From the NCBI GenBank assembly GCA_031281765.1, contig JAITEX010000067.1:1-34918 (forward strand): a stretch of DNA of 34,918 nt, given 5' to 3'. Both the position numbers and the translations under genes were made by a program. Positions within the stretch are counted from its first letter, which is position 1. The number at the start of each line of letters is the position of its first letter. The notes under the pieces were generated by a model. It made no database searches and was not told the DNA's origin. It saw nothing but the letters and a program-made list of their open reading frames with translations. The stretch comes from Eubacteriales Family XIII. Incertae Sedis bacterium. Its GTDB lineage: Bacteria; Bacillota; Clostridia; Peptostreptococcales; Anaerovoracaceae. Shown here in pieces: positions 6,307 to 22,905 of the stretch.

Positions 6307-8346
6307 ATGGAGAATAATAGAGTGATAATGGGTCGGCTCGCGGCCCTGCGCGACGCGATGCGCGCGGCGGGGCTTGACGCCTACCTCGTCTTCGACGCGG
6401 ATACGGTCGGGAGCGAATCCCCCGCGGAGCGCTTTCTGACGCGCACCTGGCTGACGGGGTTTGACGGCTCGGCCGGCTGCGCCGTTATCACGGCAAACGA
6501 AGCGCGGCTGTGGACGGACGGGCGCTACTGGCTTCAGGCTGAGAAGCAGCTTGCCGGTACGGGCATAGAGCTGATGCGATCGGGCAAAGCCGGCGTACCG
6601 AAGCCGGAAGAATTTTTAGCGGCGGCTCTGCACGCCGGGGATGCGGTCGGCGTCTGCGGGGAGACTTTTCCCGCCGCGGAGTACGACGGGCTTGCGGCGG
6701 CGCTGCAGCCGCAGGGCATAGCGGTACGCGCAACCGAAGATTTGTTTGAGAAACTCTGGACAGTAAACCGGCCGGAGATGCCGACGGGAGAGATATTTTT
6801 GCTGGAGGACGCAGCGCGGGCAAAAGGCGCGGGCGCGGCGACGGGCGCAGAAGATATGCACAGGGGGACGGTTCCCTTGTGCGATTTTGTATACAATTCA
6901 ACACAGCGGAACCGTCCCCCTGTGTTGAACGCGGCGGCGCGAAATCTGGCAGCCGTGCGGGCTGAACTGAAGAAGCGCGGCGCCGACTATGCGCTTATAA
7001 CGGACCTCGCGTCGGTCGCGTGGCTCTTCGGGTTCCGCGGCTCTGACATCCTGTGTACGCCGGTTGCCTACGCGCGCGCCCTCGTATCGCAGAGCGACGC
7101 CATTCTCTTTATCGACAATGCGAAAGTCCCTGCGGATGTCTTGTCAAGCCTGGAGATTGACGGGGTTGCCGTCAGGGATTTCGGAGGCATGGAGCATAGT
7201 CTGCGCGGGCTTGCGCCCGGAACGCGCCTTACCTATGACCCTGATACCGTCAGCGCTGCTCTGCGAAATTCCTTAGCCGCCGACATCACGCGTATTGAAG
7301 CGCCCGACCCCGTCCTGCTCCTCAAGTCCCTGAAGACGGACGAAGAAATTGGGAACCTGCGACGCTGCCACGAACGCGACGGCAGGGTTATGGTGCGTTT
7401 TCTCATATGGCTGGAGGAGTCCGCGGGAAAGATAACCGAATACGACGCGGCCGGTAAGCTGACGGAATTGCGGGCCGAAGACCCGCTCAGCCTCGGGGAT
7501 TCGTTCGAGCCGATATGCGCATATGGCGCGAACGGGGCCATCGTTCATTATCATGCGGAGCCGGACAGCGCCGCGGTAATTGGTGAGAGGACATATGCAC
7601 AGGGGGACGGTTCCCTTGAGCAATTTTGTATACAATTTAACACAGTGGAACCGTCCCCCTGTGTCGGCGGTCGTCGTACGGAGCCGGACAGCGCCGCGGG
7701 ACTCGGCGAGGCGGGGTTCTTTGTGACGGACAGCGGCGGGCAGTATGTGGACGGGACGACGGATATTACGCGGACCGTGCTGTTGGGGGATAGTGGCGAC
7801 AGCGCCCGCCGCGACTATACCCTCGTACTGAAAGCCCATATCGCCCTCGCCTCGGTCGAGTTCCGCCACGGAGTGGCGGGAGCGCATCTCGATGCGCTCC
7901 CGCGGCGCGTCCTCTGGCGCGAAGGCGTAGACTACGCGCACGGTACGGGACACGGCGTCGGGTACGTACTCGGCGTACATGAGACGCCGCCAGGCTTCAC
8001 CTCTTCGGCGAATGCGGGCTCCGGCGCCCGGACGCCCATAGAACCGAATATGGTCTTTTCAAATGAACCCGGTCTCTACCGCGCCGGCGCCTATGGCATT
8101 CGCATCGAAAACCTCGTGACGCCCTACGTTTCGCGGGAAAACGAATTCGGCAGGTTCCTGAAGCTCGAGACCCTCTCGCTCTGCCCCATCGATCTCACGC
8201 CCGTCATTGCTGAAATGCTGACAATAGATGAAATAGAATGGTTGAACGCCTACCACCGCGAAGTCTACGCGCGCCTCGCCCCCGGCCTTACGGAAACGGA
8301 ACGCCGCTGGCTTGCTTCGCGCACCCGCGAAATATCGACCCCTTGA
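6307..8346 (+). CDS. Xaa-Pro aminopeptidase (M24B, aminopeptidase P family) with two in-frame repeat insertions
   Basis: Creatinase-like N-domains plus an M24 catalytic domain (DSGGQY..GTTDITRT, HGTGHGVG, SNEPGLY, IRIEN). ATG at 6307 (MENNRVIMGRL) with RBS AAAGGGGA. The ORF-track start at 6223 lies inside repeat copy 1. Confidence 0.9.
   Translation: MENNRVIMGRLAALRDAMRAAGLDAYLVFDADTVGSESPAERFLTRTWLTGFDGSAGCAVITANEARLWTDGRYWLQAEKQLAGTGIELMRSGKAGVPKPEEFLAAALHAGDAVGVCGETFPAAEYDGLAAALQPQGIAVRATEDLFEKLWTVNRPEMPTGEIFLLEDAARAKGAGAATGAEDMHRGTVPLCDFVYNSTQRNRPPVLNAAARNLAAVRAELKKRGADYALITDLASVAWLFGFRGSDILCTPVAYARALVSQSDAILFIDNAKVPADVLSSLEIDGVAVRDFGGMEHSLRGLAPGTRLTYDPDTVSAALRNSLAADITRIEAPDPVLLLKSLKTDEEIGNLRRCHERDGRVMVRFLIWLEESAGKITEYDAAGKLTELRAEDPLSLGDSFEPICAYGANGAIVHYHAEPDSAAVIGERTYAQGDGSLEQFCIQFNTVEPSPCVGGRRTEPDSAAGLGEAGFFVTDSGGQYVDGTTDITRTVLLGDSGDSARRDYTLVLKAHIALASVEFRHGVAGAHLDALPRRVLWREGVDYAHGTGHGVGYVLGVHETPPGFTSSANAGSGARTPIEPNMVFSNEPGLYRAGAYGIRIENLVTPYVSRENEFGRFLKLETLSLCPIDLTPVIAEMLTIDEIEWLNAYHREVYARLAPGLTETERRWLASRTREISTP
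6856..6926. repeat. Nested-palindromic repeat element, copy 2 (inside the aminopeptidase CDS, translated)
   Basis: atgcacagggggacggttcccttgtg-cgatt-TTGTATACAA-ttcaa-cacagcggaaccgtccccctgtgtt. Translated as MHRGTVPLCDFVYNSTQRNRPPVL. Confidence 0.85.
7556..7699. mobile_element. In-frame insertion module: repeat copy 3 (core 7595-7664) bounded by 21-bp direct repeats
   Basis: cggagccggacagcgccgcgg occurs at 7556-7576 and again at 7679-7699, offset 123 bp = 41 codons. The core atgcacagggggacggttcccttgag-caatt-TTGTATACAA-tttaa-cacagtggaaccgtccccctgtgt lies between them. Confidence 0.75.
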
Positions 8347-8371
8347 CAAATAAAATCCATGCGCGTATAAT
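8343..8371 (+). promoter_or_regulatory. Sigma-A consensus promoter of the NifX-GNAT/ABC/NifDK-like-1 operon
   Basis: TTGACA (8343-8348), 17-nt spacer, TATAAT (8366-8371). The -35 overlaps the aminopeptidase stop codon. Confidence 0.75.
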
Positions 8372-8391
8372 AATTTCATAATACATAGGTA

Positions 8392-8410
8392 ACATATATA
8401 TTTTATATGC
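8392..8410. promoter_or_regulatory. AT-palindrome operator, site A
   Basis: ACATATATA-T-TTTATATGC, 16/18 arm positions matching the palindrome ACATATATA-N-TATATATGT. Starts 21 nt downstream of the -10. Confidence 0.65.
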
Positions 8411-8424
8411 ATTACTGATCGGAC

Positions 8425-8469
8425 AACCGAAGGCAACGCTACCAGTGGCAGTGCTTTCGGTTTTTTATT
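8425..8469 (+). terminator. Intrinsic terminator-like hairpin + T-tract inside the operon leader (or the aminopeptidase terminator)
   Basis: aaCCGAAGGCA-(16 nt)-TGCTTTCGGtt followed by TTTTTTATT. It sits between the consensus promoter at 8343 and the RBS/ATG at 8482. Confidence 0.6.
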
Positions 8470-8481
8470 GAGAAGGGAAAG

Positions 8482-9339
8482 ATGAGTTACAAAATCGCGT
8501 TTGCAAGTTCTGACGGAATACATATCGATCGCCATTTGGGCGAGGCTAAGACATTGACGATCCTGACAATAGGCGAGACAAAGAGCGTCACGACAGAAGT
8601 TTTGACAACGACGCTTGCGCCGGGCTCCGGAGGACGGGATGCTTCGCATCCCCATGCGCACGCGCACGTCAACCTTGCGCCCCTTTTAGATTGTGAATTT
8701 GTCGTGGCGCAGAAGATCGGACGCGAAATGTCCAAAGCGCTTTTGCGCAACAATATCTCCGCTATTGAACAGACGGGATCCATCGAGGAGGCGGCAACGG
8801 GCATCATCAAATTTAAGGAAACGCAGGAAAGGCGCCGGCATATAAGCAGGGATGACCTTGTCGTGGAAAAGGCGCACCCGCATGAATTGAATCAAATATC
8901 CGCCATCTATGTTCGGGCCCGCGTCAGGATGAACGAAAACGGCATCTACCAGTGGGATGAAAGATACCCGTTCGAAGAGATTACCCGGGCGGACATCAGT
9001 AATGGAAAGCTCTACATCCTCAAATTGAACGACAGGATCATCGGGGCGGCGACCCTTAACGATAGCTTGGAGTTCCCGGACGCGACGGAACTTGAGCAGG
9101 TTTATGTCATCCACCGGTTTTGCATCGACCCCGATTTTCAGAAGCGCGGCTTTGCCCGGCGCTTTCTCTTCTCCCTCTTTGAAATCGCACAAAGGGAGGG
9201 TATACATGAGATACACTTGGCCGTCGCGGAGCAGAACTTCATTGCGATAAGCTCATACCGGAAAGCCGGGTTTCGAAACCTTGAGCGCATGGATACAGGC
9301 GGGTTCGGCTATTTTCTGCATATGGCACGGAAGATATAG
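8482..9339 (+). CDS. Fusion protein: NifX/NifB-C-terminal-like (FeMo-cofactor-binding family) domain + GNAT N-acetyltransferase
   Basis: N-terminal ~115 aa (YKIAFASSDGIHIDRHLGEAKTLTI...VVAQKIGREMSKALLRNNISAIE) resembles the dinitrogenase FeMo-co biosynthesis (NifX/NafY/NifB-C) fold. The C-terminal ~160 aa has GNAT motif A (HRFCIDPDFQKRGFARRFL). One continuous ORF with RBS AGAAGGGAAAG. Confidence 0.8.
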   Translation: MSYKIAFASSDGIHIDRHLGEAKTLTILTIGETKSVTTEVLTTTLAPGSGGRDASHPHAHAHVNLAPLLDCEFVVAQKIGREMSKALLRNNISAIEQTGSIEEAATGIIKFKETQERRRHISRDDLVVEKAHPHELNQISAIYVRARVRMNENGIYQWDERYPFEEITRADISNGKLYILKLNDRIIGAATLNDSLEFPDATELEQVYVIHRFCIDPDFQKRGFARRFLFSLFEIAQREGIHEIHLAVAEQNFIAISSYRKAGFRNLERMDTGGFGYFLHMARKI

Positions 9340-9348: not shown

Positions 9349-10047
9349 ATGGGAGAGAAATATTTTCGGTGGGATTATGTTCTGGATTATTTTCCGAAGC
9401 TGTTTGAAAAGCTTCCGGTCACCTTGTCCATCGTACTGATGGCGACTCTGTTCGGCAGCATTATCGCCGTATTCGTCGCCTTTATACGGCTTGAACGCAT
9501 ACCCGTCCTGAATCAGCTTTGCGTCGTATTTGTCTCCTTTATGCGCAGTACACCCATTATCGTGCAGATGTTTCTGCTTTTCTTCGGCTCTGTGATGATC
9601 TTCAACACTCTGTTCGGCATCAATATCATCACCTATAACAAAATCTGGTTTGTCTACGCAGCCTATGCGCTGAATCTGAGCGGGTTCATGGCCGAAATAT
9701 TCCGCGGCGCCATCCTCGGCGTCCCGAAAAAACAGATGGACGCAGCTATCTCTGTCGGCCATAACAGGCGTCAAGCGTATCTGCATATCATCATTCCGCA
9801 GGCGGCCGTCATCGCGTTGCCCACACTCGGTTATACGATTGTCGCGTTGCTGCAGGACTCAACGCTGGCTTTCACCTTCGGCATCATCGATGTCATCGGG
9901 GCAATCAACGGAGTGTCCGCCTCTACGGGCCACAAGCTCGAAGGCTACTTCGACGCCGCCTTTATGTTCGCTATACTCGCGATCCTCGTTGAGAAACTGT
10001 TCGGATTCTTGGAGAAAAAAACAACCCACCAGTCGAGAATCACATGA
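9349..10047 (+). CDS. Polar amino-acid ABC transporter permease (His/Glu/Gln/Arg/cystine-type)
   Basis: 232 aa, multi-TM, with an EAA-like loop (MAEIFRGAILGVPKKQMDAAISVG). RBS AGGAGGG 9 nt after the preceding stop. Confidence 0.9.
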   Translation: MGEKYFRWDYVLDYFPKLFEKLPVTLSIVLMATLFGSIIAVFVAFIRLERIPVLNQLCVVFVSFMRSTPIIVQMFLLFFGSVMIFNTLFGINIITYNKIWFVYAAYALNLSGFMAEIFRGAILGVPKKQMDAAISVGHNRRQAYLHIIIPQAAVIALPTLGYTIVALLQDSTLAFTFGIIDVIGAINGVSASTGHKLEGYFDAAFMFAILAILVEKLFGFLEKKTTHQSRIT

Positions 10048-10110: not shown

Positions 10111-10944
10111 ATGAAAACGAAAATAACGAAAATTCTCATTGGCCTGCTGACGCTGAGTCTGTTGTTTGCTGTCGGCTGTTCAAAGTCGAACGACAAGGAC
10201 AGCGGCGAGGCAACCGACGGAGAAAAGACGAAGCTGATCGTCAGTTCGCAGCCGGGCGAGTACCCCCCGCTTATCTACGTGAATGAAAACGGGGAAAATG
10301 ACGGCATAGACTTCCGCATAATCAAGGCTTTGCAGGAGGAATTGCCACAGTACGAATTCGAAGTCGTTGCGCAGGATATGGCGACGACGCTGACCGCGCT
10401 CGATTCAGGAACAGTGGATGTGGGGCTCTGCATGTTCGAGTACAATGAACAGCGCGCCGAGAAATACGTCTACTCCGATGTCGGCTATATGGAATACGGT
10501 CAGTACATCGTCGTGCCGAAGGGCAATCCCCTCGGTATCAAGTCGCTCGACGATCTGGGCGGCAAACGCGTCAGCACCTACCCGTCATCCAATACCGCGT
10601 TTATTCTCGAGGATTATAACGCAAATCACCCGGACAACCAGATAGAGATCGTCTATGTGGCCGCAACGGACGCAATCCGCAAGGGCCTGCAAAGCGGAGA
10701 TACGGACGCGACGCTTTCGACCAAATGGGGCGTTGATCTGGAAGTTGCGCAGTTTGGCGACTATGAGGAGATTGCGGGCGAATCCATCTGGCCAGGCCAG
10801 GCCTATGTCCTCTTCCCGCGCACAAACGAAAACAAGCAAGTACAAGCGGACGTGAACGCCGCGCTCAAACGGCTTGTCGATTCCGGAGAAGCGCAGCGCA
10901 TCTACGACAACCTGCTTGAGGAATGGAAGGCGACCTTGAAATAG
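10111..10944 (+). CDS. Amino-acid ABC transporter substrate-binding lipoprotein (PBP type 3 family)
   Basis: Signal peptide with lipobox LLFAVGC. ATG at 10111 (MKTKITKIL) with RBS GAAAGGAAAG preferred over 10060. Periplasmic-binding-protein-like sequence. Confidence 0.85.
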   Translation: MKTKITKILIGLLTLSLLFAVGCSKSNDKDSGEATDGEKTKLIVSSQPGEYPPLIYVNENGENDGIDFRIIKALQEELPQYEFEVVAQDMATTLTALDSGTVDVGLCMFEYNEQRAEKYVYSDVGYMEYGQYIVVPKGNPLGIKSLDDLGGKRVSTYPSSNTAFILEDYNANHPDNQIEIVYVAATDAIRKGLQSGDTDATLSTKWGVDLEVAQFGDYEEIAGESIWPGQAYVLFPRTNENKQVQADVNAALKRLVDSGEAQRIYDNLLEEWKATLK

Positions 10945-10968: not shown

Positions 10969-11682
10969 ATGTCAACCGTATTTGATTTTGATTTTTTTAT
11001 AGAATGCCTTAAGTCGGGCGCGGCGCGGATTCCGGTAAATCTTTACGTGGCCGCGGCGTCGGTATTCTTCGGAATGATATTCGGACTCATTATCGCGCTC
11101 ATACGGGTATTCCGGGTGCCGGTGCTGTCACCGATTTTCCGCTGGCTGGTCACCATACTAAAGGGCGTTCCTGTCATTCTTATGTTGCTCGTCTTCTATG
11201 TTCTCGCAGCGGATTACTTCAATTTAATTATGGAGTATTTCGGAATCGACTACACCTTTCGTCAGTTGAACAAGGCGATTATCGCTATAATCGCCTTGTC
11301 CGTCCTTTCATCCATAGGGCTTTCCGAGTCCTTCCGCGGCGCGCTCGCATCGGTGAAGAAGGGACAGTATGACGCGGCCTATTCCGTCTGGCTTACGAAG
11401 CGGCAGGCCCTCGTTTACGTCATTATACCGCAGGCCTTCCCTATCGCCGTACCGACGCTCTGCAATTATATTATCGGGATGATCAAGGCCGGCGCGCTCG
11501 CCGCTATGATTTCGGTTGTAGACATCATGAACGGCGCGCTCATCCCTGCCAACGCGAACTATCGATACCTCGAAGGGTACACGGCAGCCGCGTTGATTTA
11601 TTGGGTTGTTTGCGCGACGCTCGAAAAGGTATTGAATATCGCGGAAAAACGTTTCGCGAGCAAAGTAAGGGAGGTTGCTTAA
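10969..11682 (+). CDS. Polar amino-acid ABC transporter permease (second subunit)
   Basis: 237 aa, multi-TM, with an EAA-like loop (LSESFRGALASVKKGQYDAAYSV). Confidence 0.9.
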   Translation: MSTVFDFDFFIECLKSGAARIPVNLYVAAASVFFGMIFGLIIALIRVFRVPVLSPIFRWLVTILKGVPVILMLLVFYVLAADYFNLIMEYFGIDYTFRQLNKAIIAIIALSVLSSIGLSESFRGALASVKKGQYDAAYSVWLTKRQALVYVIIPQAFPIAVPTLCNYIIGMIKAGALAAMISVVDIMNGALIPANANYRYLEGYTAAALIYWVVCATLEKVLNIAEKRFASKVREVA

Positions 11683-12440
11683 TGATAGAGGTAAAGGGGC
11701 TGAAAAAGGCCTTTGGGCAAAACCAGGTACTCAAAGGGGTGGGCTTCCACGTCAATGAAGGGGATGTTATGACGCTGCTCGGCGTGAGCGGTTCGGGGAA
11801 AACGACGCTCATTCGTTGCCTGAATTATTTGGAGAGCCCCGACGAAGGGGTGATCCGCATCGATGACCGGACGGTGGACGCGCAGAAAATCACCAAGAAG
11901 GAAATCATCGAACTGCGGAAAAAGACCGCTATGGTTTTCCAGACCTACGACTTGTTCCTGAACCTGAACGCCCTGCAAAATGTTACGGAAGGGCTTATCC
12001 GGGGCGGCAAAATCCCGAAGCCGGACGCGGAGGATATTGCGCGTGATTTGCTTGAAAAAGTGGGGCTGTCCGCAAAATTGGAAAGCAAGCCCTATCAGCT
12101 TTCGGGCGGCGAACAGCAGCGTGTCGGGATAGCGCGCGCGCTCGCGCTCTGCCCTAAGGTCATCCTGTTTGACGAGCCGACTTCGGCGCTGGACCCGGAG
12201 GTGATCGGCGAGATATTGGATATTATCAAGGCGGTGGCGCGGAGCGGCGTTACCATGATTATCGTGACGCACGAGATGGAATTCGCGTTTAGCGTTTCCA
12301 ATAAGGTAGTCTTTATCGATCAGGGGGAAATCGTGGAGGAAGGGTCGCCGCGCGAGGTATTTCTGGAATCCAGTCAGGAACGCACGAAATCCTTCTTAGC
12401 CCGGTCGAATTTCCGGTTCCAACCGGAATATTATTTGTAA
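11682..12440 (+). CDS. Amino-acid ABC transporter ATP-binding protein
   Basis: Walker A GVSGSGKTT, signature LSGGEQQRVGIARAL, Walker B ILFDEPTSALD. The ATG at 11682 overlaps the permease stop (TAATG). The ORF-track start at 11601 is rejected. Confidence 0.92.
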   Translation: MIEVKGLKKAFGQNQVLKGVGFHVNEGDVMTLLGVSGSGKTTLIRCLNYLESPDEGVIRIDDRTVDAQKITKKEIIELRKKTAMVFQTYDLFLNLNALQNVTEGLIRGGKIPKPDAEDIARDLLEKVGLSAKLESKPYQLSGGEQQRVGIARALALCPKVILFDEPTSALDPEVIGEILDIIKAVARSGVTMIIVTHEMEFAFSVSNKVVFIDQGEIVEEGSPREVFLESSQERTKSFLARSNFRFQPEYYL

Positions 12441-16030: not shown

Positions 16031-16031
16031 T

Positions 16032-16058: not shown

Positions 16059-16085
16059 CAATATTCCATAAAGAAAGGGACAACT

Positions 16086-17021: not shown

Positions 17022-18389
17022 CTACAGGCTCAATTTTCTGCGGAAGGTCCGGGCGATAAGGCAGAGGCTGATAAGGCAGGTTGCCGTCTCCGCAACCGGA
17101 AAGCAGTACCAGACATAGCGCGGTTCAAACACCCGCCACAACAGTAAGGCGGCCGGGATGATGAATACGAGCTGTCTGAGCGAGGATATGATAAACGACA
17201 CAAACCCCACTCCGATAGATTGATAAAAGTTGGCTGTCATAATGGAAACCCCGGACATCGCGAAGGATATGCTGATGACGCGGAGCGCAAACGCCCCTAT
17301 CTCGTTGAGGTTCGCGGACGCGTGGAAAAGGCTCATGATCTCCTGCGGGAACATCTGCGTAAGCGCCGTCCCCACGAGCATAGCCGTTACGGAAGATACC
17401 ATCGCGAGAATAAATGTCTTGCGGACGCGCGGGATATTACGCGCCCCGTAATTGAAGCTGATAATAGGCAGGGCTCCCTGCCCTATTCCAAAGACGGGCG
17501 TAATGATTATCGTCTGCAGGCGATAATATATGCCGAGAACCGCCACGGCTGTCACCGAATACGCCATGAGAATAGCGTTCATCAAGAGTGACGATAGCGA
17601 CGAGATCCCATACATGAAGATGGAAGGCGCCCCGACTCTATAGATGTCCTTAATAATGGGGAAGTTGAAGCGCAGCGTACGCAGGGCAAAGCTCACATCA
17701 CTTTTCGCGCGCGCGAGCAGGATGAGGCCGAGCGCGGCCGCCGAGCACTGCCCTATCACCGTAGCCGTAGCCGAGCCGGCGATCCCGAGCGCGGGGAAGC
17801 CGAACTTCCCGAAAATAAGGATGGGATTGAGAACGATGTTGATGACCGTCCCGACGATGTTAAATATAAGCGGCTGATAGACGAGCCCCACCGATTGCAA
17901 AATCCTCTCGATATTGAACTGGAAGAAGGCGCCGAGGGAGCCGACCGTCGTGATAGTGCAAAACACCGACGCAAGGGACAGCAGCTCGGGGTCGTCGGTG
18001 AGCAGATGCAGAAACGGCATGGTGAGGAGGATGCCGAAGGCCGCGAAAACCAACCAGCTTGCTATGACAAGCAGGTACGCCTGATTGGCGACCGCCGAAA
18101 CCTTTTCCCTGTTCTTCTCCCCGTAGGAGCGGGCCATCAGGGAACCGACGCCAACGCCGGTCCCCGCGGCGATCGCCATGAGAAACATCGGGATGGGGAA
18201 AACGAGCGTCGTCGCAGCCAACGCTTTCTCGGAGATGCGCGCCACGAAGATGCTGTCCACGATATGGTAGACGGATTGGGCCGTCATGGTAACGATGGGC
18301 GGTATCGACATCGCCGCGAGCAAGCGCCCGACGGGTCTGGTTCCTAACTTCTCACTTCCCGGCTCAACGCCGCCCATCTTACCGGCCAT
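17022..18389 (-). CDS. MATE-family efflux transporter
   Basis: 455 aa, ~12 predicted TM segments, with a typical MATE N-terminus (RLLAAMSIPPIVTMTAQSVYHIVDSIFVARI). The start codon lies 2 nt after the NifK-like-2 stop. Confidence 0.88.
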   Translation of the reverse strand: MAGKMGGVEPGSEKLGTRPVGRLLAAMSIPPIVTMTAQSVYHIVDSIFVARISEKALAATTLVFPIPMFLMAIAAGTGVGVGSLMARSYGEKNREKVSAVANQAYLLVIASWLVFAAFGILLTMPFLHLLTDDPELLSLASVFCTITTVGSLGAFFQFNIERILQSVGLVYQPLIFNIVGTVINIVLNPILIFGKFGFPALGIAGSATATVIGQCSAAALGLILLARAKSDVSFALRTLRFNFPIIKDIYRVGAPSIFMYGISSLSSLLMNAILMAYSVTAVAVLGIYYRLQTIIITPVFGIGQGALPIISFNYGARNIPRVRKTFILAMVSSVTAMLVGTALTQMFPQEIMSLFHASANLNEIGAFALRVISISFAMSGVSIMTANFYQSIGVGFVSFIISSLRQLVFIIPAALLLWRVFEPRYVWYCFPVAETATCLISLCLIARTFRRKLSL

Positions 18390-18391: not shown

Positions 18392-19678
18392 TTACAGATT
18401 GTTGAACAGGTCCTCAACGAGGGTTATCGCGCCGCGGTATCCGCTATAGGTGCGGTTGAGAATCAGCTGGTCGGTGATGGGATACGCCGCAACGAATATC
18501 TGCGCGTCACGATTGAAGGCGATTTCCCGTTCCAATGAACTGCCGACAAACAGCGAGACGTCGTTATACTCGTCGAGGGCCCGGCCCACATCGTAATTAT
18601 CGGTGGCAAAGACGACATCCGGCCCTTTGACATATTCGAGATCCTGTATCCGGTCCCGTATAGCCGCCTTATCCGCTTCGCGTGACACCGGTTCGGTCAC
18701 CACGGTGACCACCGGGGTGAACCCGAGGTCGTTCGCGAGCGCGTGCGTCATGCCTATCGCCACATTGGCGTCCCCGATGACGGCGAATTTCTTCCACGAC
18801 AGAGCGCCGATGGCCGTTTCGTAATAATTATAGACGTAAGACTCCTCCTCGTAGATGACATCCTCGACGAGTTTGCCGTCTATAGCAAGCGCGTCCGCAA
18901 CCTGCCGGACGAGGCGCGTCGTATCGGTCGCGCCGACCGGCAGCCCCGGGAAACGGAGGCTCGGCACGCCGAACCTCTTTTCAAATTTCCTTGCCTCGCC
19001 TTGCAGGAGCCACGGATTGACTATGACGTTCAGCGCCGCCGCGCCGGCATTTTTTATATGTTCAATGCCCTGGCCGTGCGAGAAGAAGGTATTCACCTCC
19101 AGACCGAGCTTGGAAAAGATGCGCACTAATTCCTCAAACGTGCCCGCCCAATAGGGGTCATGATAGGGGAAGATGCCGAGCAGGTTGATGAGATTGGCCT
19201 GCCTGGGCCGCCCCGGCTCCACGAGCTGGCTCAGGAAGGTGGATATGGTCGTTTCGTATCCGAGGTTGCTGTCCCCCGCAAACCCCGGCGTGGGGATGTT
19301 ATAGACCGGGAAGCCTTCCGCGCGGAACCCCTTCGCCACCGTCTCCGTATCATCGCCGATAATGCCCGATGTGCAGCCGTTGAGGATGAAGTAGGCGTCC
19401 GCGTCGATAATGTCGATACTGCCGCGAATCGTATCGGTGAGTTTTTCAATGCCGCCAAACACCACCTCGCGTTCGAGCATAAGCGAGCAGGGAAGGGACA
19501 CGCTCGAGAGGAAATGCGGCGACTTGAGTCCCGCCTGCCCCGCTTCCCCCGCGCTGGTCTGGAGTCCGCATCCGGGTCCCGAATGAAAGATCGGGCAGAA
19601 TTTGTTGACGGCTGACAGGGTGCTGTTGATGCCGCCGAGTACGCAGCTGCCCCGGGGGTTCTCGGTAACGATGGACAT
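18392..19678 (-). CDS. Nitrogenase component-1 beta-like subunit (NifK/NifN-like), paralog 2
   Basis: GSCVLGG, HSGPGCG and LNGCTSGIIGDD give all three NifK-type P-cluster Cys motifs. The start lies 1 nt after the NifD-like-2 stop. Confidence 0.85.
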   Translation of the reverse strand: MSIVTENPRGSCVLGGINSTLSAVNKFCPIFHSGPGCGLQTSAGEAGQAGLKSPHFLSSVSLPCSLMLEREVVFGGIEKLTDTIRGSIDIIDADAYFILNGCTSGIIGDDTETVAKGFRAEGFPVYNIPTPGFAGDSNLGYETTISTFLSQLVEPGRPRQANLINLLGIFPYHDPYWAGTFEELVRIFSKLGLEVNTFFSHGQGIEHIKNAGAAALNVIVNPWLLQGEARKFEKRFGVPSLRFPGLPVGATDTTRLVRQVADALAIDGKLVEDVIYEEESYVYNYYETAIGALSWKKFAVIGDANVAIGMTHALANDLGFTPVVTVVTEPVSREADKAAIRDRIQDLEYVKGPDVVFATDNYDVGRALDEYNDVSLFVGSSLEREIAFNRDAQIFVAAYPITDQLILNRTYSGYRGAITLVEDLFNNL

Positions 19679-19679: not shown

Positions 19680-21131
19680 TTAGATTACCTCCTTTATAAA
19701 CTTGAACGGGTCTTCGTCATACCAGCTCTCGCGATACGGCAGGCGCGCATACTTCGACAGCTTCTTGTTGAATCCCGGGTTTTCGATTTGGGCCGCGATC
19801 TTATTCCCCAGCCACACGATGCCGTCATAGCCCATAGTCGGCCGTTTCGGATCCAGAATATGCGTGGTCGGAATGCCGAACCTCGACGACCAGGAGGGTA
19901 CGCCGATAAAGACGTCCGGTTTCAGTTTGTTCACTATATTTACCTGTTCAAAGGGCAGCATATTGGCGACGTCGATGAGGTAATCCCCGTGAATATCGTT
20001 CAGAAACGCTATGTCGTCCTGAGCGTCAAGGTCGTAGACGGGCGTTTCAATGCCGAGCAGTTTCATGCCGAAATCATCGATAAGGGTGGCCGCCGCGAAC
20101 GAACGGCCCGTGCCGCCGCAGATAAACACCGACTTGCCCTGTAGCTTCAGCTTGATCTTGTCCAATTCCGGCTGAATGCGCGCGTGTTCGGTGGCGATGA
20201 TCTCTTCGACTTCATCCCCCTTGCCGGTGATCTCGGCAATGGCGCGATACCACTTATCCGTATTGCGTATTCCCACCGGCATCACCGTATGGGCGTAAGG
20301 AATGCCGAAGTCATGTTCGATGTCCTTCATAAACTCATCGGCGAACACCTTGCAGATGGACGTGGACGCTTCGGCGTTCGGTATATTCAGAACTTTGTCA
20401 TAGTCGCTGAAGAAGGGCAAAAAGTTGCTCTTCAATCCTATCCTCCGCAGCAATTTTTCTATTTCGAGCTGATCCGCGAAGCTCACCGTCATCGGCGCGA
20501 AGAGATTGATAAGGCCCTTCTCCTTCTTCGGGACCGCGCCTTTTAACACGAATTTCGATATGGCGATAAAAGCGGCGTCGTACCCGGAAGCGCAGATTTT
20601 CGACCGAAAACCGTCGCAGTGCACGGGGACGATGAGCGCCTCCGTATCCGGCTGCGCCTCGCGGACGATGGCGTCAACATCATCGCCTATTATACCGGAA
20701 GCGCAGGAGGTGAACACGAAAATCAGCTTTGGCTTGTACCGTTCGGACGCAAGCCGGATGGATTCGCGCAGCTTCCCCTCGCCTCCCATAATGACGTCGC
20801 TCTGATCGAGGTTTGTTATGAGGATCTTCGGTGACGTGATTTTCTCGGCGCCGCGATGGATCTGCGCGACACGGTACATATCCGCCCCCATGGTGATACA
20901 CCCGACACAGCCCTGCGGCGCGTGCGCGATGAGCACGGCGTCATTGACCGAAAGTAACGCGGATATGCTGTTCAGCTCCTGGCATTGATAGCTCTGGCTG
21001 AACGTGCGATCAGCGTTCTTAATACATTTCTTCTTGAAATCCTGCTCGATTTGCAGACTGCTGCCCGCAAGATCGAGATACGTATCGGTGTATTCGCGTT
21101 GTTCCCGAATACCGGAATAGGTTCTTGGCAT
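19680..21131 (-). CDS. Nitrogenase component-1 alpha-like subunit (NifD/NifE-like), paralog 2
   Basis: HAPQGC, FTSCASGIIGDDVDAIV, VHCDGFRSK, STSICKVFADEF (cofactor-Cys position) and GIPTTHILD (candidate His). The ATG at 21131 (MPRTYSG) follows a GGGAGGAG RBS, so the ORF-track start at 21149 is rejected. Confidence 0.85.
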   Translation of the reverse strand: MPRTYSGIREQREYTDTYLDLAGSSLQIEQDFKKKCIKNADRTFSQSYQCQELNSISALLSVNDAVLIAHAPQGCVGCITMGADMYRVAQIHRGAEKITSPKILITNLDQSDVIMGGEGKLRESIRLASERYKPKLIFVFTSCASGIIGDDVDAIVREAQPDTEALIVPVHCDGFRSKICASGYDAAFIAISKFVLKGAVPKKEKGLINLFAPMTVSFADQLEIEKLLRRIGLKSNFLPFFSDYDKVLNIPNAEASTSICKVFADEFMKDIEHDFGIPYAHTVMPVGIRNTDKWYRAIAEITGKGDEVEEIIATEHARIQPELDKIKLKLQGKSVFICGGTGRSFAAATLIDDFGMKLLGIETPVYDLDAQDDIAFLNDIHGDYLIDVANMLPFEQVNIVNKLKPDVFIGVPSWSSRFGIPTTHILDPKRPTMGYDGIVWLGNKIAAQIENPGFNKKLSKYARLPYRESWYDEDPFKFIKEVI

Positions 21132-21175
21132 CTTTCTCCTCCCATACATCCGTCTCCGTCAATATAGCCTAATTA

Positions 21176-21194
21176 ACATATATGAATATCTGAG
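21176..21194. promoter_or_regulatory. AT-palindrome operator, site E (degenerate, one strong half-site)
   Basis: Plus strand ACATATATG-AATATCTGA. It lies at about +5 to +24 relative to the minus-strand promoter of the NifDK-like-2 operon. Confidence 0.45.
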
Positions 21195-21198
21195 TTTT

Positions 21199-21227
21199 AT
21201 TATATGGTGAATTGAACTATATGTCAA
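21199..21227 (-). promoter_or_regulatory. Sigma-A consensus promoter of the NifDK-like-2/MATE operon
   Basis: Minus strand reads TTGACA (21227-21222), 17-nt spacer, TATAAT (21204-21199). Confidence 0.75.
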
Positions 21228-21277: not shown

Positions 21278-21306
21278 TTGACAAGAGTAAAGGAGAGGCA
21301 TATAAT
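21278..21306 (+). promoter_or_regulatory. Sigma-A consensus promoter of the NifB-like/NifX-like operon
   Basis: TTGACA (21278-21283), 17-nt spacer, TATAAT (21301-21306). Divergent from the promoter at 21199-21227. Confidence 0.75.
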
Positions 21307-21318
21307 AATACTTATTAA

Positions 21319-21337
21319 ACATATATATTATATATGT
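21319..21337. promoter_or_regulatory. AT-palindrome operator, site C (perfect 9-1-9 palindrome)
   Basis: ACATATATA-T-TATATATGT. Starts 13 nt after the -10. Confidence 0.7.
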
Positions 21338-21398: not shown

Positions 21399-22301
21399 AT
21401 GCGGAGAAGGACGGATTTCGTGAAAACATACAGAAACGGAAGTTTGATAAACCAACACCCCTGCTTCAACCATGGGGCGAAAGCAGGCAGGATTCACCTG
21501 CCGGTTTGCCCTTCTTGCAATATTTTCTGCAATTTTTGCGTAAGAAAAACGGATGATGAGGAATGGGATGTCGTGCGGCCCGGGCTTTCGTCGGGATTGA
21601 TCGCACCGGAGGAAGCGGGAAGATATGTCGCCGACGCATTGCACTTCTGCCCGGACATTTCGGTGGTCGGTATCGCGGGGCCGGGAGATACGCTTGCAAC
21701 CGATCATGCGCTCCGGGCCTTCGCCTCGGTTCACGAGCGGTTTCCGCATCTGCTGAAATGCATGAGCACGAATGGCCTGCGCCTGTCGGAACGTTTGGGC
21801 GAAGTGATTCGCGCCGGAGTGGATACGCTGACCGTAACGGTGAATGCCGTTGATCCCGGGATCCTCAAGGATATATGCTCAGGCATTATCTATCAAAACA
21901 AGCTGCTCTCGGGCGCCGAAGGCGCCGAAATCCTGATCGCGAATCAGCTCGGCGGCATTAAGGCGGCAGCCTTGGCCGGCATTACCATAAAGGTGAATAT
22001 GGTGCTGATACCGGAGATCAATGGCGACCACGTTAAACAGGTCGCGCATGAGGTCGGAAACGCGGGAGCTTCTATCTTCAACATCATCCCTCTTATCCCG
22101 CAGAACAAGCTCAGCGAATGTGCGGCGCCGAACTGCGGCCAGATTGCCGATGCGCGCGCGGACGCGGAAACGTTTCTGCCCGTATTCAAACATTGCCAAC
22201 ATTGCCGTGCCGACGCGGTAGGGCTTCTGGGTGGCCGGGATTTCGGCCGGGAGGTCTTCGCGAATAAGGAAGCGGTAGCCGACACATTCTCCCACGGATG
22301 A
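21399..22301 (+). CDS. NifB-like radical SAM protein (stand-alone SAM domain, no fused NifX domain)
   Basis: HPCF...GRIHLPVCPSCNIFCNFCVRK (HPC motif + CX3CX2C), VVGIAGPGDTLA, KCMSTNGL and the C-terminal HCQHCRADAVGLLG closely parallel NifB. The start is uncertain: ATG at 21399, or GTG at 21420 behind GGAGAAGGA. Confidence 0.85.
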   Translation: MRRRTDFVKTYRNGSLINQHPCFNHGAKAGRIHLPVCPSCNIFCNFCVRKTDDEEWDVVRPGLSSGLIAPEEAGRYVADALHFCPDISVVGIAGPGDTLATDHALRAFASVHERFPHLLKCMSTNGLRLSERLGEVIRAGVDTLTVTVNAVDPGILKDICSGIIYQNKLLSGAEGAEILIANQLGGIKAAALAGITIKVNMVLIPEINGDHVKQVAHEVGNAGASIFNIIPLIPQNKLSECAAPNCGQIADARADAETFLPVFKHCQHCRADAVGLLGGRDFGREVFANKEAVADTFSHG

Positions 22302-22327
22302 GCTGCCTGAAACGGAAGGTGACATTT

Positions 22328-22678
22328 ATGGCATATAGAGCTGCCTTTGCAACGAGCGACGGATTGACCGTTTACAAACACTTCGGACAAGCGAACGAAT
22401 ATCTCGTCGCCGACATCCTGGAAGACCATTATGAAATCGTAGCTCGCAGAAACGTAGTCCCTCCCTGCAACGCCCGCGGGCACTCGGAAGCGGCGTTCGA
22501 CGCGGTACTTGACGCCTTATCCGACTGTGAAGCCATTTTCGTCGGCAAGGTCGGAGTGGGAGCTGCGGAATACATCGCAAGCCGGGGTATAAACGTATTT
22601 GAAACCCCGGGTGTGATCGATGAGATTTTTTTAAAACAAAAATCGCAGGCGCCTCTTGATAAAAAACGGGATATATGA
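22328..22678 (+). CDS. NifX/NifB-C-terminal-like FeMo-cofactor-binding family protein
   Basis: MAYRAAFATSDGLTVYKHFGQANEYLV...IFVGKVGVGAAEYIASRGINVFE. ATG at 22328 with RBS GGAAGGTGA preferred over 22298. Confidence 0.8.
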   Translation: MAYRAAFATSDGLTVYKHFGQANEYLVADILEDHYEIVARRNVVPPCNARGHSEAAFDAVLDALSDCEAIFVGKVGVGAAEYIASRGINVFETPGVIDEIFLKQKSQAPLDKKRDI

Positions 22679-22684
22679 TATTAT
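22656..22684 (+). promoter_or_regulatory. Promoter of the yezD-like gene (extended -10)
   Basis: TTGATA (22656-22661), 17-nt spacer, TGaTATTAT (22676-22684). Embedded in the 3' end of the NifX-like gene. Confidence 0.6.
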
Positions 22685-22703
22685 ACATATATGTTATATA
22701 TGT
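22685..22703. promoter_or_regulatory. AT-palindrome operator, site D
   Basis: ACATATATG-T-TATATATGT (17/18 arm positions). Directly abuts the -10. Confidence 0.65.
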
Positions 22704-22725
22704 AATAGGGTGATAGGTAGAGCCG

Positions 22726-22905
22726 ATGACCAATGCGAATACCGTTAAAACAGAAGAAAGCCGATTATTGAAAAAATTTTCGCTTGATGACCTCGACAAA
22801 ATCGTCGGCTACATCAACGAAATCAAGTATGGTTCCGTCACAATCATTATTCAGGACGGGCACATAATTCAGATTGATAAAAACGAGAAGATCCGGTTGA
22901 AATAG
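22726..22905 (+). CDS. yezD: YezD-family small protein (DUF2292), 59 aa, absent from the ORF track
   Basis: Hand translation: MTNANTVKTEESRLLKKFSLDDLDKIVGYINEIKYGSVTIIIQDGHIIQIDKNEKIRLK*. The YGSVTIIIQDGxIIQIDKNEKIRL core is the hallmark of the family as I recall it. Confidence 0.75.
   Translation: MTNANTVKTEESRLLKKFSLDDLDKIVGYINEIKYGSVTIIIQDGHIIQIDKNEKIRLK

What the first reader, a model, noticed from the sequence alone, without database searches (positions are those of the whole stretch)
8343..22905. Uncharacterised NifB-dependent nitrogenase-like (NFL) reductase supercluster wired to an amino-acid importer, a GNAT, a MATE exporter and YezD
Seen in sequence: 14.5 kb holds six transcription units. 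(i) NifX-domain::GNAT fusion, permease, lipoprotein SBP, permease and ATPase of a polar amino-acid ABC importer, then NifD-like/NifK-like pair 1, with gaps of 63 nt or less. (ii) A TetR regulator. (iii) A monocistronic NifH-like Fe-protein. (iv) A divergent NifD-like/NifK-like pair 2 plus a MATE exporter, with 1-2 nt gaps. (v) A NifB-like radical SAM gene plus a NifX-like gene. (vi) YezD. There are no nifI (PII) or nifV genes in the window, no NifN-type subunit lacking the P-cluster Cys, and no nitrogen-metabolism neighbours. Established knowledge: nitrogenase homologues outside true Nif/Vnf/Anf include DPOR/COR, CfbCD (F430 synthesis) and the methylthio-alkane reductase MarBHDK of Rhodospirillum rubrum. 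As far as I recall, only true nitrogenases and Mar are linked to NifB. Inference: this is a NifB-cofactor-containing nitrogenase-like reductase acting on an imported, possibly N-acetylated, amino-acid-like (perhaps organosulfur) substrate rather than on N2. I am not aware of a characterised system combining two DK-like pairs with one H-like protein, an importer, an exporter and a GNAT.
Basis: partly seen in the sequence, partly recalled or inferred. Interest (0 to 1): 0.92.

Follow-up and report, generated by a model that had tools for sequence, protein, structure and literature searches.

The report
Nitrogenase-like sulfur-scavenging reductase cluster
This locus is not a nitrogen-fixing system: it belongs to a widespread but functionally uncharacterised family of nitrogenase-like gene clusters of anaerobic gut and rumen bacteria that most likely break carbon-sulfur bonds in imported sulfur compounds to supply the cell with sulfur.

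Summary
It comprises a NifX::GNAT fusion, a four-gene polar-amino-acid ABC importer, two NifDK-like pairs, a TetR, one NifH-like protein, a MATE exporter, a NifB-like radical-SAM enzyme, a NifX-like protein and a DUF2292/YezD protein. Five of the six transcription units share the same AT-rich palindrome right after the -10 box, so they form one regulon. The Fe protein is most similar to R. rubrum MarH. D1 has the Mar-type cofactor site (Cys256, Arg413-His414) but falls in a subclade separate from MarD. D2 belongs to a different Group-IV-like clade that lacks that loop and has an invariant His430 in the loop where nitrogenase places His442. K1 and K2 both keep all three P-cluster cysteines, so D2K2 does not look like NifEN. 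The core set (B, X, H, D1K1, D2K2, importer) recurs in Lachnospiraceae, Clostridium and Treponema genomes, next to CysK, CymR-like regulators, C-S lyases and Ssu-type transporters. The binding protein's nearest solved relatives are TcyK cystine binders. The best reading is anaerobic organosulfur assimilation. Multi-DK NFL loci, NifB linkage beyond Mar and the sulfur context were already published, so this is a new variant of a known kind whose substrate is unknown.

The parts
8343..8411 (+). Promoter P1 (TTGACA-17-TATAAT, 8343-8371) followed by the operator-like palindrome ACATATATATTTTATATGCA (8392-8411)
8482..9339 (+). NifX-like domain fused to a GNAT acetyltransferase. The N-terminal half is homologous to the small 'X2' NifX-like proteins found next to D1K1/D2K2 elsewhere. 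It carries a His-rich insert, DASHPHAHAH.
9349..10047 (+). ABC importer permease 1 (TcyL/M-like)
10111..10944 (+). Lipoprotein substrate-binding protein (SBP_bac_3). Its nearest solved relatives are Listeria Lmo2349/TcyK and B. subtilis YtmK/TcyK.
10969..11682 (+). ABC importer permease 2
11679..12440 (+). ABC importer ATPase
12453..13949 (+). D1, the NifD/MarD-like alpha subunit. P-cluster Cys53/78/144. Cofactor ligands Cys256 and Loop-I Arg413-His414. Active-site motif IWQSGAD.
13970..15277 (+). K1, the NifK/MarK-like beta subunit, with all three P-cluster Cys (12, 36, 95)
15374..15964 (+). TetR-family regulator. It is the candidate repressor of the shared operator. It is lineage-specific and has no operator of its own.
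16001..16059 (+). Promoter PH (TTGACA-18-TGxTATAAT) followed by the operator ACATATATCATATATATGATATATATGC
16086..16976 (+). H, the single Fe protein (ATP-dependent reductase). It has the Walker A motif and the two 4Fe-4S Cys. Best match is R. rubrum MarH at 499 bits.
17022..18389 (-). MATE efflux transporter, last gene of the D2-K2-MATE operon
18392..19678 (-). K2, the second beta-like subunit, with all three P-cluster Cys (12, 37, 102). Best match is MarK.
19680..21149 (-). D2, the second alpha-like subunit. P-cluster Cys56/81/149 and Cys266 (equivalent to NifD Cys275). It has no Loop-I Arg-His. His430 is invariant in the nitrogenase His442 loop. A Cys sits at the NifD Gln191 position.
21176..21227 (-). 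Promoter PD2 (TTGACA-17-TATAAT on the minus strand, 21227-21199) followed by an operator half-site at 21176-21190
21278..21337 (+). Promoter PB (TTGACA-17-TATAAT) followed by the perfect palindrome ACATATATATTATATATGT (21319-21337)
21399..22301 (+). NifB/MarB-like radical-SAM enzyme without a NifX domain. Motifs present: HPC, CNIFCNFC, TVTVN, HCQHCRADAVG.
22298..22678 (+). NifX-like cofactor carrier (X)
22656..22703 (+). yezD promoter (TTGATA-17-TGxTATTAT) followed by the palindrome ACATATATGTTATATATGT
22726..22905 (+). DUF2292/YezD small protein. It recurs next to the NifB-like gene in related loci.

Best explanation
The locus is a single regulon encoding a Group-IV nitrogenase-like (NFL) reductase system for anaerobic sulfur acquisition.

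Proposed mechanism:
1. One MarH-type Fe protein (H) uses ATP to pass electrons to two different catalytic heterotetramers. Each is predicted to hold a P-cluster.
2. D1K1 has the Mar-type cofactor site, made of a Cys plus a Loop-I Arg-His.
3. D2K2 belongs to a separate clade. It keeps the Cys, lacks that loop, and has an invariant His in the loop that nitrogenase uses.
4. A SAM-domain-only NifB homologue makes an [Fe8S9C]-type cluster. Two NifX-like carriers are expected to deliver it. One is free; the other is fused to a GNAT.
5. A TcyKLMN-like ABC importer brings in a sulfur-containing amino-acid-like compound, such as cystine or an S-alkyl-cysteine-type molecule. The GNAT may acetylate it.
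6. The two reductases cleave C-S bonds. They act either on different substrates or in sequence, thioether to thiol and then thiol to sulfide.
7. The released thiol or sulfide enters cysteine or methionine synthesis. The MATE pump may export the left-over skeleton.

What is shown: gene content, ligand residues, clade placement, the conserved neighbourhood and the shared operator. What is inferred: the cofactor, the substrate class, the acetylation step, the division of labour between the pairs, and TetR as the repressor.
For: Nearest solved relatives are all R. rubrum methylthio-alkane reductase subunits.
- D1 matches MarD at E 9e-88, against 1e-30 to 1e-35 for NifD.
- D2 matches MarD at 1e-64.
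- K2 matches MarK at 1e-66.
- H matches MarH at 5e-149 and 499 bits, against 285 bits for NifH.

Ligand residues.
- D1 and its family keep the Mar hallmark Cys270/Arg428/His429 in 36 of 36 sequences.
- All six P-cluster Cys are present in both pairs.
- NifD Gln191 and His195 are absent from both D proteins.
- The B protein has NifB signature motifs.

Conserved neighbourhood around D2 homologues, from 80 genome loci.
- Of the 40 loci with full flanks, D1K1 is within 10 kb in 24, B in 23, H in 22, a polar-amino-acid SBP in 22 and CysK in 20.
- The recurring order is H-CysK-D1-K1-X2-(Rrf2)-D2-K2. CysK lies directly upstream of D1 in 19 cases.
- D2-K2 is followed by SsuA/SsuC-like genes in Treponema.
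- A CymR-like Rrf2 regulator, a PatB C-S lyase and Cys/Met PLP enzymes are also present.

Importer. The SBP's best solved relatives are Lmo2349/TcyK and B. subtilis YtmK/TcyK. TcyK belongs to the CymR-controlled snaA-tcyJKLMN-cmoOIJ-sndA operon, which converts S-methyl-cysteine to cysteine and begins with a GNAT (PMC6323116).

Regulation. The same operator-like palindrome sits at five promoters.

Literature. Group IV NFL systems are associated with sulfur genes; Mar and ISR are sulfur-acquisition enzymes (PMC13474568).
Against: - The window itself holds no CysK, MetY, CymR or other sulfur-metabolism gene.
- No S-box, T-box or other riboswitch was found in the window or in seven related loci.
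- D1 is only about 33% identical to MarD and D2 about 29%. R. palustris homologues 52-65% identical to one another already differ in substrate or have no known activity (bioRxiv 10.64898/2026.08.20.746119). Mar chemistry therefore cannot be transferred.
- CysK can act as a CymR co-repressor rather than as an enzyme (10.1101/2021.09.07.459368).
- SBP similarity to TcyK is moderate (E about 1e-26) and does not fix the ligand.
- GNAT, MATE and TetR are not conserved parts of the family.
- No expression or biochemical data exist for this clade.
Confidence: 0.62

Rival explanations
1. D2K2 is not a second enzyme. It is a NifEN-like scaffold or maturase on which the NifB product is processed before transfer to the catalytic D1K1, analogous to nifDK-nifEN-nifX.
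For: - NCBI often names D2 homologues NifE.
- D2's top NCBIfam model is nifE at 167 bits, against 158 for the alpha-subunit model; both are far below cut-off.
- D1K1 and D2K2 are adjacent in 24 of 40 loci, and a NifX-like gene sits between them.
- D2 lacks the Mar-type Arg-His ligand loop.
- Dos Santos et al. proposed exactly this for DKDK operons (PMC3464626).
Against: - K2 keeps all three P-cluster Cys, whereas NifN lacks two.
- D2 groups with the Mar-type clade to the exclusion of NifD and NifE in 100 of 100 bootstraps.
- D2K2 occurs with B and H but without D1K1 within 10 kb in L031-L033, L036 and L062.
- D2K2 has its own transporter partners, Ssu-like genes in Treponema.
- Mar needs no NifEN (PMC13474568).
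Confidence: 0.13
2. The system reduces a non-sulfur substrate. It could act on an imported amino-acid derivative for catabolism or detoxification (C-N, C-O, C-Se or C-halogen bonds). It could also take part in making an exported secondary metabolite, with GNAT and MATE as tailoring and export steps.
For: - The window has a GNAT, a MATE exporter, a TetR, and an adjacent MarR with two ABC exporters.
- The window has no sulfur gene.
- The functions of two Group IV clades are unknown (PMC13474568).
- D1 of this lineage has an atypical active-site motif, IWQSGAD, against IWASGFD in most relatives.
Against: - The sulfur context of related loci is strong and repeated: CysK, CymR-like regulators, PatB, Ssu-type genes.
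- The SBP is closest to cystine binders.
- GNAT, MATE and TetR are not conserved with the reductases.
Confidence: 0.15
3. One of the pairs is an alternative nitrogenase (Nfa-like) that fixes N2.
For: - Group IV-A Nfa enzymes with the same Arg-His motif are reported to support N2 fixation (PMC13474568, PMC9147875).
- H passes the NifH equivalog cut-off, 399 against 394 bits.
- D2 has a Cys/His pair that may mimic Cys275/His442.
Against: - No PII/NifI, NifV, NifEN or nitrogen-regulation genes are in the window.
- NifD Gln191 and His195 equivalents are absent.
- Both D proteins lie outside NifD/NifE in the tree.
- An amino-acid importer and the sulfur context of relatives do not fit N2 fixation.
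Confidence: 0.04

Closest known systems
Methylthio-alkane reductase MarBHDK of Rhodospirillum rubrum (Group IV-C NFL; PDB 9FMG/9D9U)
   Same: - It has the same parts: a SAM-domain-only NifB homologue, one Fe protein and a DK heterotetramer with six P-cluster Cys.
- D1 carries the Cys + Arg-His (Loop I) cofactor site.
- Mar subunits are the best solved match for H, D1, D2 and K2.
   Different: - D1 is about 33% identical to MarD and falls in a separate subclade (99 of 100 bootstraps).
- Active-site residues H194/S196/F199/F374 of MarD are I/Q/A/W in D1.
- D2 lacks Loop I altogether.
- Related loci couple to CysK and a cystine-type importer rather than to O-acetylhomoserine sulfhydrylase.
- There are two DK pairs and two NifX-like proteins.
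R. palustris Mar1/Mar2/NflDK3 loci, and R. rubrum marBHDK plus the nearby nflDK
   Same: - Several DK pairs are served by fewer H and B genes.
- A NifX homologue is present.
- Neighbours are sulfur-metabolism and transport genes.
- At least one pair has unknown function (bioRxiv 10.64898/2026.08.20.746119; PMC13474568).
   Different: - Those are alphaproteobacterial systems, regulated by sulfate limitation through SalR.
- Their DK paralogues all keep Cys270/His429.
- Here the second pair lacks that His loop.
- Here the regulon is controlled through a local AT-rich operator, probably bound by the TetR.
nifDK-nifEN-nifX organisation of true nitrogenases
   Same: - Two tandem DK-like pairs plus a NifX-like carrier and NifB.
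- D2 has a His in the loop that carries NifD His442.
   Different: - K2 keeps all P-cluster Cys, unlike NifN.
- There is no NifV, NifQ or PII.
- Gln191 and His195 are missing.
- Both D proteins lie outside the NifD/NifE clades.
B. subtilis snaA-tcyJKLMN-cmoOIJ-ribR-sndA (ytmI) S-methyl-cysteine/cystine salvage operon
   Same: A GNAT leads an operon that encodes a TcyK-type binding protein, two permeases and an ATPase, followed by the enzymes that attack the sulfur compound. Relatives of the present cluster sit next to CymR-like regulators and CysK (PMC6323116).
   Different: - The oxygen-dependent monooxygenases are replaced here by oxygen-sensitive nitrogenase-like reductases.
- No deacetylase is present in the window.
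- Homology of the GNAT to SnaA was not tested.

Membership tests
[quoted passage not shown] | MarD cofactor ligands Cys270 plus Loop-I Arg428-His429 | tested here: met
   D1 has Cys256 and Arg413-His414; the motif is conserved in 36 of 36 D1-family sequences. D2 does not meet it: there is a gap in 82 of 82 D2-family sequences.
[quoted passage not shown] | Six P-cluster cysteines (three in D, three in K) | tested here: met
   Present in both D1K1 and D2K2.
[quoted passage not shown] | Phylogenetic placement inside the MarD clade | tested here: not met
   Neighbour-joining tree with 100 bootstraps. The D1 subclade excludes the MarD/Chlorohelix subclade in 99 of 100 replicates. The D2 clade is separate in 100 of 100. 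The method is distance-based and lacks labelled IV-A to IV-F references, so the subgroup name is unresolved.
[quoted passage not shown] | Active-site residues H194, W195, S196, F199, F374 and H375 shared by R. rubrum Mar and R. palustris Mar1/Mar2 | tested here: not met
   D1 has I, W, Q, A, W, H. D2 has I, C, A, Y, P, V.
[quoted passage not shown] | Cleavage of DMS, EMS or methylthioethanol to methanethiol plus hydrocarbon; induction by sulfate limitation | not testable with these tools
   Needs culture work or biochemistry.
Group IV NFL systems with a NifB-derived cofactor (broad class) | Co-located NifB homologue with radical-SAM and NifB cluster motifs, an Fe protein, and a DK pair with the Cys275-equivalent | tested here: met
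   The B protein has HPC, Cx3Cx2C, TVTVN and CxxCRADAxG. H has Walker A and both cluster Cys. D1 has Cys256 and D2 has Cys266.
Bona fide nitrogenase (Nif/Vnf/Anf) | NifD Gln191 and His195, Cys275 and His442; NifEN (or at least NifE); placement in groups I-III | tested here: not met
   - The Gln191 and His195 positions are W/A in D1 and C/Y in D2.
- No NifEN, NifV or PII is present.
- Both D proteins lie outside NifD/NifE in 100 of 100 bootstraps.
- D2 His430 aligns with His442 in two of four alignments (auto and G-INS-i) and two residues away in the other two.
NifEN cofactor maturase | The NifN-type subunit lacks two of the three P-cluster Cys (a [4Fe-4S] sits at the interface); NifE has Asn in place of His442 | tested here: not met
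   K2 has Cys12, Cys37 and Cys102; NifN has one. D2 has an invariant His in that loop.
Isethionate reductase (ISR, Group IV-F) | IsrDK lacks the P-cluster and cofactor ligand residues; IsrB has only a radical-SAM domain without NifB cluster motifs (PMC13474568) | tested here: not met
   All ligand Cys are present. The B protein has NifB C-terminal motifs.
CfbCD / DPOR / COR | A single [4Fe-4S] at the dimer interface, no NifB, tetrapyrrole pathway neighbours | tested here: not met
   These models score far below cut-off. NifB is present. No tetrapyrrole genes are in the window.
TcyJKLMN-type sulfur amino-acid ABC importer | An SBP related to TcyK/TcyJ, two permeases and one ATPase; binds cystine or S-alkyl-cysteines | tested here: inconclusive
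   The architecture is met. The best solved relatives are Lmo2349/TcyK at 2e-27 and YtmK at 5e-26. The ligand was not tested.

The most novel reading that the evidence does not exclude
D2K2 represents an uncharacterised class of NifB-cofactor enzymes. In this reading it ligates its cluster in the nitrogenase manner: a Cys plus a His on the 'Loop II' side, with a conserved Cys where nitrogenase has Gln191. It would work in tandem with a Mar-type D1K1, both drawing electrons from one Fe protein. Together they would strip sulfur stepwise from imported S-alkyl-cysteine-like compounds in strict anaerobes. That would be an oxygen-free replacement for the monooxygenase-based S-methyl-cysteine/cystine salvage pathway. 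It could also be a non-archaeal source of methane, ethylene or other small hydrocarbons in rumen, termite and gut communities.
Probability: 0.15. Interest if true: 0.85.

Novelty: new variant of a known kind. Interest (0 to 1): 0.6.

Why it matters
[quoted passage not shown] A 2026 review names the remaining ones as the field's main open problem (PMC13474568).

This cluster family is common in rumen and gut Lachnospiraceae, Clostridium and Treponema. It therefore probably contributes to anaerobic sulfur cycling in animals, and possibly to hydrocarbon gas formation.

The analysis narrows the search in four ways:
- It points to cystine or S-alkyl-cysteine-like substrates.
- It shows that the second DK pair has a different cofactor-binding solution from Mar.
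- It names cultured carriers in which the hypothesis can be tested.
- It defines a five-promoter operator that could serve as a reporter for the inducing signal.

Tried and rejected
1. Riboswitch or T-box control. The Rfam gathering scan of the window and of seven related loci found nothing except one tRNA.
2. Conservation of the operator. The palindrome ACATATAT-N3-ATATATGT is absent from all 87 fetched loci. The octamer occurs once in the closest long relative, L087, which is chance level. The operator is therefore lineage-specific.
3. TetR orthology. The TetR of L087 shares only the HTH region with the window's TetR.
4. Naming the D2-adjacent clades. The listing of cluster members returned only generic names such as 'nitrogenase'. 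I could not decide whether D1 or D2 corresponds to Group IV-D or IV-E, and the held papers do not list members.
5. Literature searches for CymR + nitrogenase, for DUF2292/YezD, and for NFL in rumen or gut bacteria gave nothing specific.
6. Source of the window. The D2 product is not on record in the contig index, so the organism is not identified. The best D1/D2 relatives are 85% and 79% identical JGI metagenome proteins.
7. NifEN-like reading of D2K2. Considered, and down-weighted on the Cys pattern, the tree and the stand-alone occurrences.
8. Exact equivalence of D2 His430 with NifD His442. It depends on the alignment method. Structure prediction was not run because the tool returns no coordinates with which to measure the Cys-His geometry.
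9. Search for other NifX::GNAT fusions. Only one other was found, at 77% identity and with the same gene order.

Full report
**1. Observation**

On the + strand:
- a protein with a NifX-type Nitro_FeMo-Co domain fused to a GNAT (8482-9339);
- a permease (9349-10047);
- an SBP_bac_3 lipoprotein (10111-10944, lipobox);
- a second permease (10969-11682);
- an ABC ATPase (11679-12440);
- two Oxidored_nitro proteins, D1 (12453-13949) and K1 (13970-15277);
- a TetR (15374-15964);
- a NifH-family protein whose real start is the ATG at 16086.

On the - strand, with 1-2 nt gaps: D2 (19680-21149), K2 (18392-19678) and a MATE transporter (17022-18389).

Divergent from D2: a 300-aa NifB-like radical-SAM protein (21399-22301), a NifX-like protein (22298-22678) and a 59-aa DUF2292/YezD protein (22726-22905).

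The rest of the window holds housekeeping and unrelated genes: a GntR, a DUF4143 ATPase, ClpB, a Phd/ParE pair, a glyoxalase, an M24 peptidase, a MarR, two ABC exporters, CoaC/CoaB-like genes, SHMT and a racemase. None is a PII, NifV, NifE or NifN gene.

**2. One regulon**

The promoter scan found four perfect 12/12 sigma-70 consensus promoters. They lie exactly upstream of the importer-D1K1 operon (8343-8371), H (16001-16030), D2-K2-MATE (21227-21199, minus strand) and B-X (21278-21306). A 10/12 promoter precedes yezD.

Right after each -10 box lies an AT-rich palindrome built on ACATATAT...ATATATGT. The octamer ACATATAT occurs 8 times in the 34.9-kb window, only at these five promoters. Shuffles give a mean of 0.57 and a maximum of 3.

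This is direct sequence evidence that the scattered units are co-regulated. The TetR gene has no such site and is the obvious candidate repressor, but that is an inference. The operator is not found in related loci. The TetR is not orthologous to the one in the closest long relative. The regulatory layer is therefore lineage-specific.

**3. What the reductase proteins are**

Against solved structures, the best matches are the R. rubrum methylthio-alkane reductase subunits (PDB 9FMG/9D9U):
- D1 at E 9e-88 and D2 at 1e-64, against about 1e-30 to 1e-35 for NifD;
- K2 against MarK at 1e-66;
- H against MarH at 5e-149 and 499 bits, against 285 bits for the best NifH.

I aligned D1/D2 family members taken from 80 genome loci with several references. 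These were MarD (rebuilt), a Chlorohelix Mar-like D, and annotated NifD/K/E/N from Rahnella and C. butyricum plasmids.

The alignments show the following:
- Both D proteins keep the three P-cluster cysteines and the Cys equivalent to NifD Cys275/MarD Cys270. These are Cys256 in D1 and Cys266 in D2.
- Both K proteins keep all three NifK cysteines, whereas NifN has one.
- D1 and all 36 family members keep the Loop-I Arg-His (Arg413-His414). The Nat Catal 2025 structure paper identifies this motif as the second cofactor ligand and a hallmark of Mar. The 2026 review says it is conserved in nearly all Group IV systems (PMC12552129, PMC13474568).
- D2 and all 82 family members lack that loop.
- D2 instead carries GIPTT-H-(V/I)LD. 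The His is invariant in 120 of 120 top homologues and lies in the loop that carries NifD His442.
- That His aligns with His442 under MAFFT auto and G-INS-i, and two residues away under L-INS-i and E-INS-i. The equivalence is suggestive, not established.
- Neither D has NifD Gln191 or His195. D2 has a conserved Cys at the Gln191 position.
- The B protein has the NifB motifs HPC, CNIFCNFC, TVTVN and HCQHCRADAVG, and no NifX domain, like MarB.

**4. Phylogeny**

I built a neighbour-joining tree with 100 bootstraps from the 50%-identity representatives found with D2 plus the references.
- The Arg-His clade (MarD, Chlorohelix D, D1) is separate from D2 and from NifD/NifE in 100 of 100 replicates.
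- D1's subclade is separate from the MarD subclade in 99 of 100.
- D2 forms its own clade in 100 of 100.
- D2 plus the Arg-His clade excludes NifD/NifE in 100 of 100.

Identities are low: D1-MarD 33%, D2-MarD 29%, D1-D2 26%, and either D against NifD/NifE 21-23%.

Both pairs are therefore Group-IV-type NFL proteins, and neither is a Mar orthologue. I could not obtain labelled IV-D or IV-E references, so the subgroup names stay open.

**5. How common the cluster is, and what travels with it**

D1 and D2 each have hundreds of homologues at 60-70% identity in Clostridia, Lachnospiraceae, Oscillospiraceae and Treponema (rumen and termite gut); D1 homologues are also found in Sodalis, Brenneria and Syntrophobotulus.

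I examined 80 genome loci around D2 homologues. In the 40 with full 10-kb flanks:
- D1K1 lies within 10 kb in 24;
- B in 23 and H in 22;
- a polar-amino-acid binding protein in 22;
- a second small NifX-like gene (X2) in 22;
- CysK in 20;
- MATE in 9, YezD in 6 and a small GNAT in 3.

Typical orders are B-X-H-CysK-D1-K1-X2-(Rrf2)-D2-K2-importer in Lachnospiraceae, and CysK-D1-K1-LysR-importer-MATE-X2-D2-K2-SsuA-SsuC-SsuB in Treponema. CysK lies directly upstream of D1 in 19 cases. YezD lies directly upstream of B in 5.

NCBIfam confirms the accessory families:
- cysteine synthase A (466 bits, above cut-off);
- a CymR-like Rrf2 regulator;
- a PatB C-S lyase (442 bits, above cut-off);
- Cys/Met gamma-lyase-family PLP enzymes;
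- SsuA/SsuC-like transporter parts.

A Syntrophobotulus-type locus adds a corrinoid protein and a URO-D-type methyltransferase between two DK pairs.

D2K2 also occurs with B and H but without D1K1 nearby in L031-L033, L036 and L062.

The X2 proteins are homologues of the N-terminal half of the window's NifX::GNAT protein. The fusion itself was found only once more among 5.8 billion proteins, at 77% identity and with the same gene order.

**6. The importer**

The binding protein's best solved relatives are Listeria Lmo2349 (4GVO, 2e-27) and B. subtilis YtmK/TcyK (2O1M, 5e-26).

Listeria TcyK binds cystine and cysteine (10.1101/2021.09.07.459368). B. subtilis TcyK belongs to the CymR/AscR-controlled snaA-tcyJKLMN-cmoOIJ-ribR-sndA operon, which converts S-methyl-cysteine to cysteine (PMC6323116). 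That snaA encodes an acetyltransferase is from my own knowledge, not from the cited paper.

The window's arrangement is GNAT, then a binding protein with two permeases and an ATPase, then the enzymes. It parallels that operon, with oxygen-sensitive reductases in place of the monooxygenases. This is an analogy from established knowledge, not a tested homology of the GNAT.

**7. Most likely mechanism**

Shown:
- one Fe protein, two distinct DK heterotetramer candidates with complete P-cluster ligands, a NifB-type enzyme and two NifX-type domains;
- a TcyK-like importer;
- a common operator;
- a sulfur/cysteine gene context in relatives.

Inferred:
- B makes an [Fe8S9C] cluster that the NifX-like proteins carry to D1K1 and D2K2.
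- H delivers electrons at the cost of ATP.
- The substrates are imported organosulfur amino-acid-like compounds whose C-S bonds are cleaved reductively. The resulting thiol or sulfide is taken up by CysK-type enzymes.

The two pairs either have different substrates, as Mar1 and Mar2 do in R. palustris, or act in sequence from thioether to thiol to sulfide. GNAT acetylation and MATE export are plausible additions in this lineage only.

I put 0.62 on the general statement. I put much less, about 0.2-0.25, on S-alkyl-cysteine plus N-acetylation specifically.

**8. Rivals**

- A NifEN-like scaffold role for D2K2 (0.13) was proposed for DKDK operons in 2012 (PMC3464626). It fits the NifX gene between the pairs. 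The K2 cysteines, the tree and the stand-alone D2K2 loci argue against it.
- A non-sulfur substrate or a biosynthetic role (0.15) cannot be excluded from the window alone.
- N2 fixation (0.04) is unlikely. The catalytic and accessory requirements are missing and the context does not fit.

**9. Comparison with what is known, and novelty**

Much of this is already published:
- NifB-linked Group IV NFL systems and their 'tantalizing association' with sulfur genes;
- genomes with multiple DK pairs;
- a NifX requirement;
- a second nflDK of unknown function near marBHDK.

The sources are PMC13474568, bioRxiv 10.64898/2026.08.20.746119, PMC9147875 and PMC3464626.

So is the claim that two DK pairs sharing one H is unheard of.

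What seems not to be described in the papers I could read:
- the D2-type clade's loss of the Arg-His loop, its invariant His in the nitrogenase loop and its Cys at the Gln191 position;
- the conserved CysK-D1K1-X2-D2K2 module with a TcyK-type importer;
- the NifX::GNAT fusion;
- the five-promoter operator.

I therefore rate the finding a new variant of a known kind. Interest is moderate to good (0.6) rather than the 0.92 first proposed.

Noticed in passing
window 8343-8371, 16001-16030, 21199-21227, 21278-21306: Four perfect 12/12 TTGACA-N17/18-TATAAT promoters lie within 13 kb. That is unusually strong consensus for one locus and implies tight repression by the operator just downstream.
   Followed up: yes
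window 8620-8660 (residues ~50-62 of the NifX::GNAT protein): A His-rich insert, DASHPHAHAHVN, sits inside the NifX-like domain. The free NifX-like protein at 22298-22678 lacks it. It may be a metal- or cluster-binding stretch.
   Followed up: no
window 12990-13010 (D1 residues 179-185): D1 has the active-site motif IWQSGAD, where 109 of 120 close homologues have (I/V)WA(S/T)GFD. Only 8 of 120 share the Gln/Ala(Asn) variant, which hints at a substrate shift in this sublineage.
   Followed up: partly
window 23021-27673: A MarR regulator and two half-size ABC exporters (a likely heterodimer) lie directly downstream of yezD. The MarR has its own promoter-like site at 22989-23017 and no ACATATAT operator, so they are probably not part of the regulon.
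   Followed up: partly
window 27609-28241 (+) and 28303-29073 (-): A Flavoprotein-domain (CoaC-like) gene and a DFP-domain (CoaB-like) gene are separate and convergent. In most bacteria these two domains form a single fused coaBC gene.
   Followed up: no
window 5052-5640: A Phd/YefM antitoxin and ParE toxin pair with overlapping genes.
   Followed up: no
window 6223-8346: A 707-aa M24 Xaa-Pro aminopeptidase ends at 8346, inside the -35 box of the cluster's first promoter. It could supply amino acids or peptides, but it has no conserved link to the cluster in related loci.
   Followed up: partly
L089 13256-19145: In a Syntrophobotulus-type contig, two DK pairs flank a CysK, a URO-D-family methyltransferase and a B12-binding corrinoid protein. 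Two Cys/Met PLP enzymes follow. This suggests that methyl-thiol demethylation is coupled to an NFL reductase.
   Followed up: no
L085 739-11746 (Candidatus Chlorohelix allophototropha plasmid): A Mar-like B-X-H-D-K operon with the Arg-His motif sits on a 375-kb plasmid of a phototrophic Chloroflexota. It lies next to an O-acetylhomoserine sulfhydrylase and an ABC importer, and is flanked by IS elements.
   Followed up: partly
L088 10001-12784 (Brenneria izadpanahii chromosome): A D1K1-type pair stands alone in an enterobacterial plant pathogen, next to a transposase and a CcdAB pair. No H, B or D2K2 lies within 10 kb. It may be a horizontally acquired or decaying copy.
   Followed up: no
loci L001, L002, L006, L019, L021, L058, L062 versus most others: The Fe proteins of related clusters fall into two identity classes relative to the window's H: about 73-78% and about 50%. 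Two different H lineages therefore appear to serve the same DK families.
   Followed up: no
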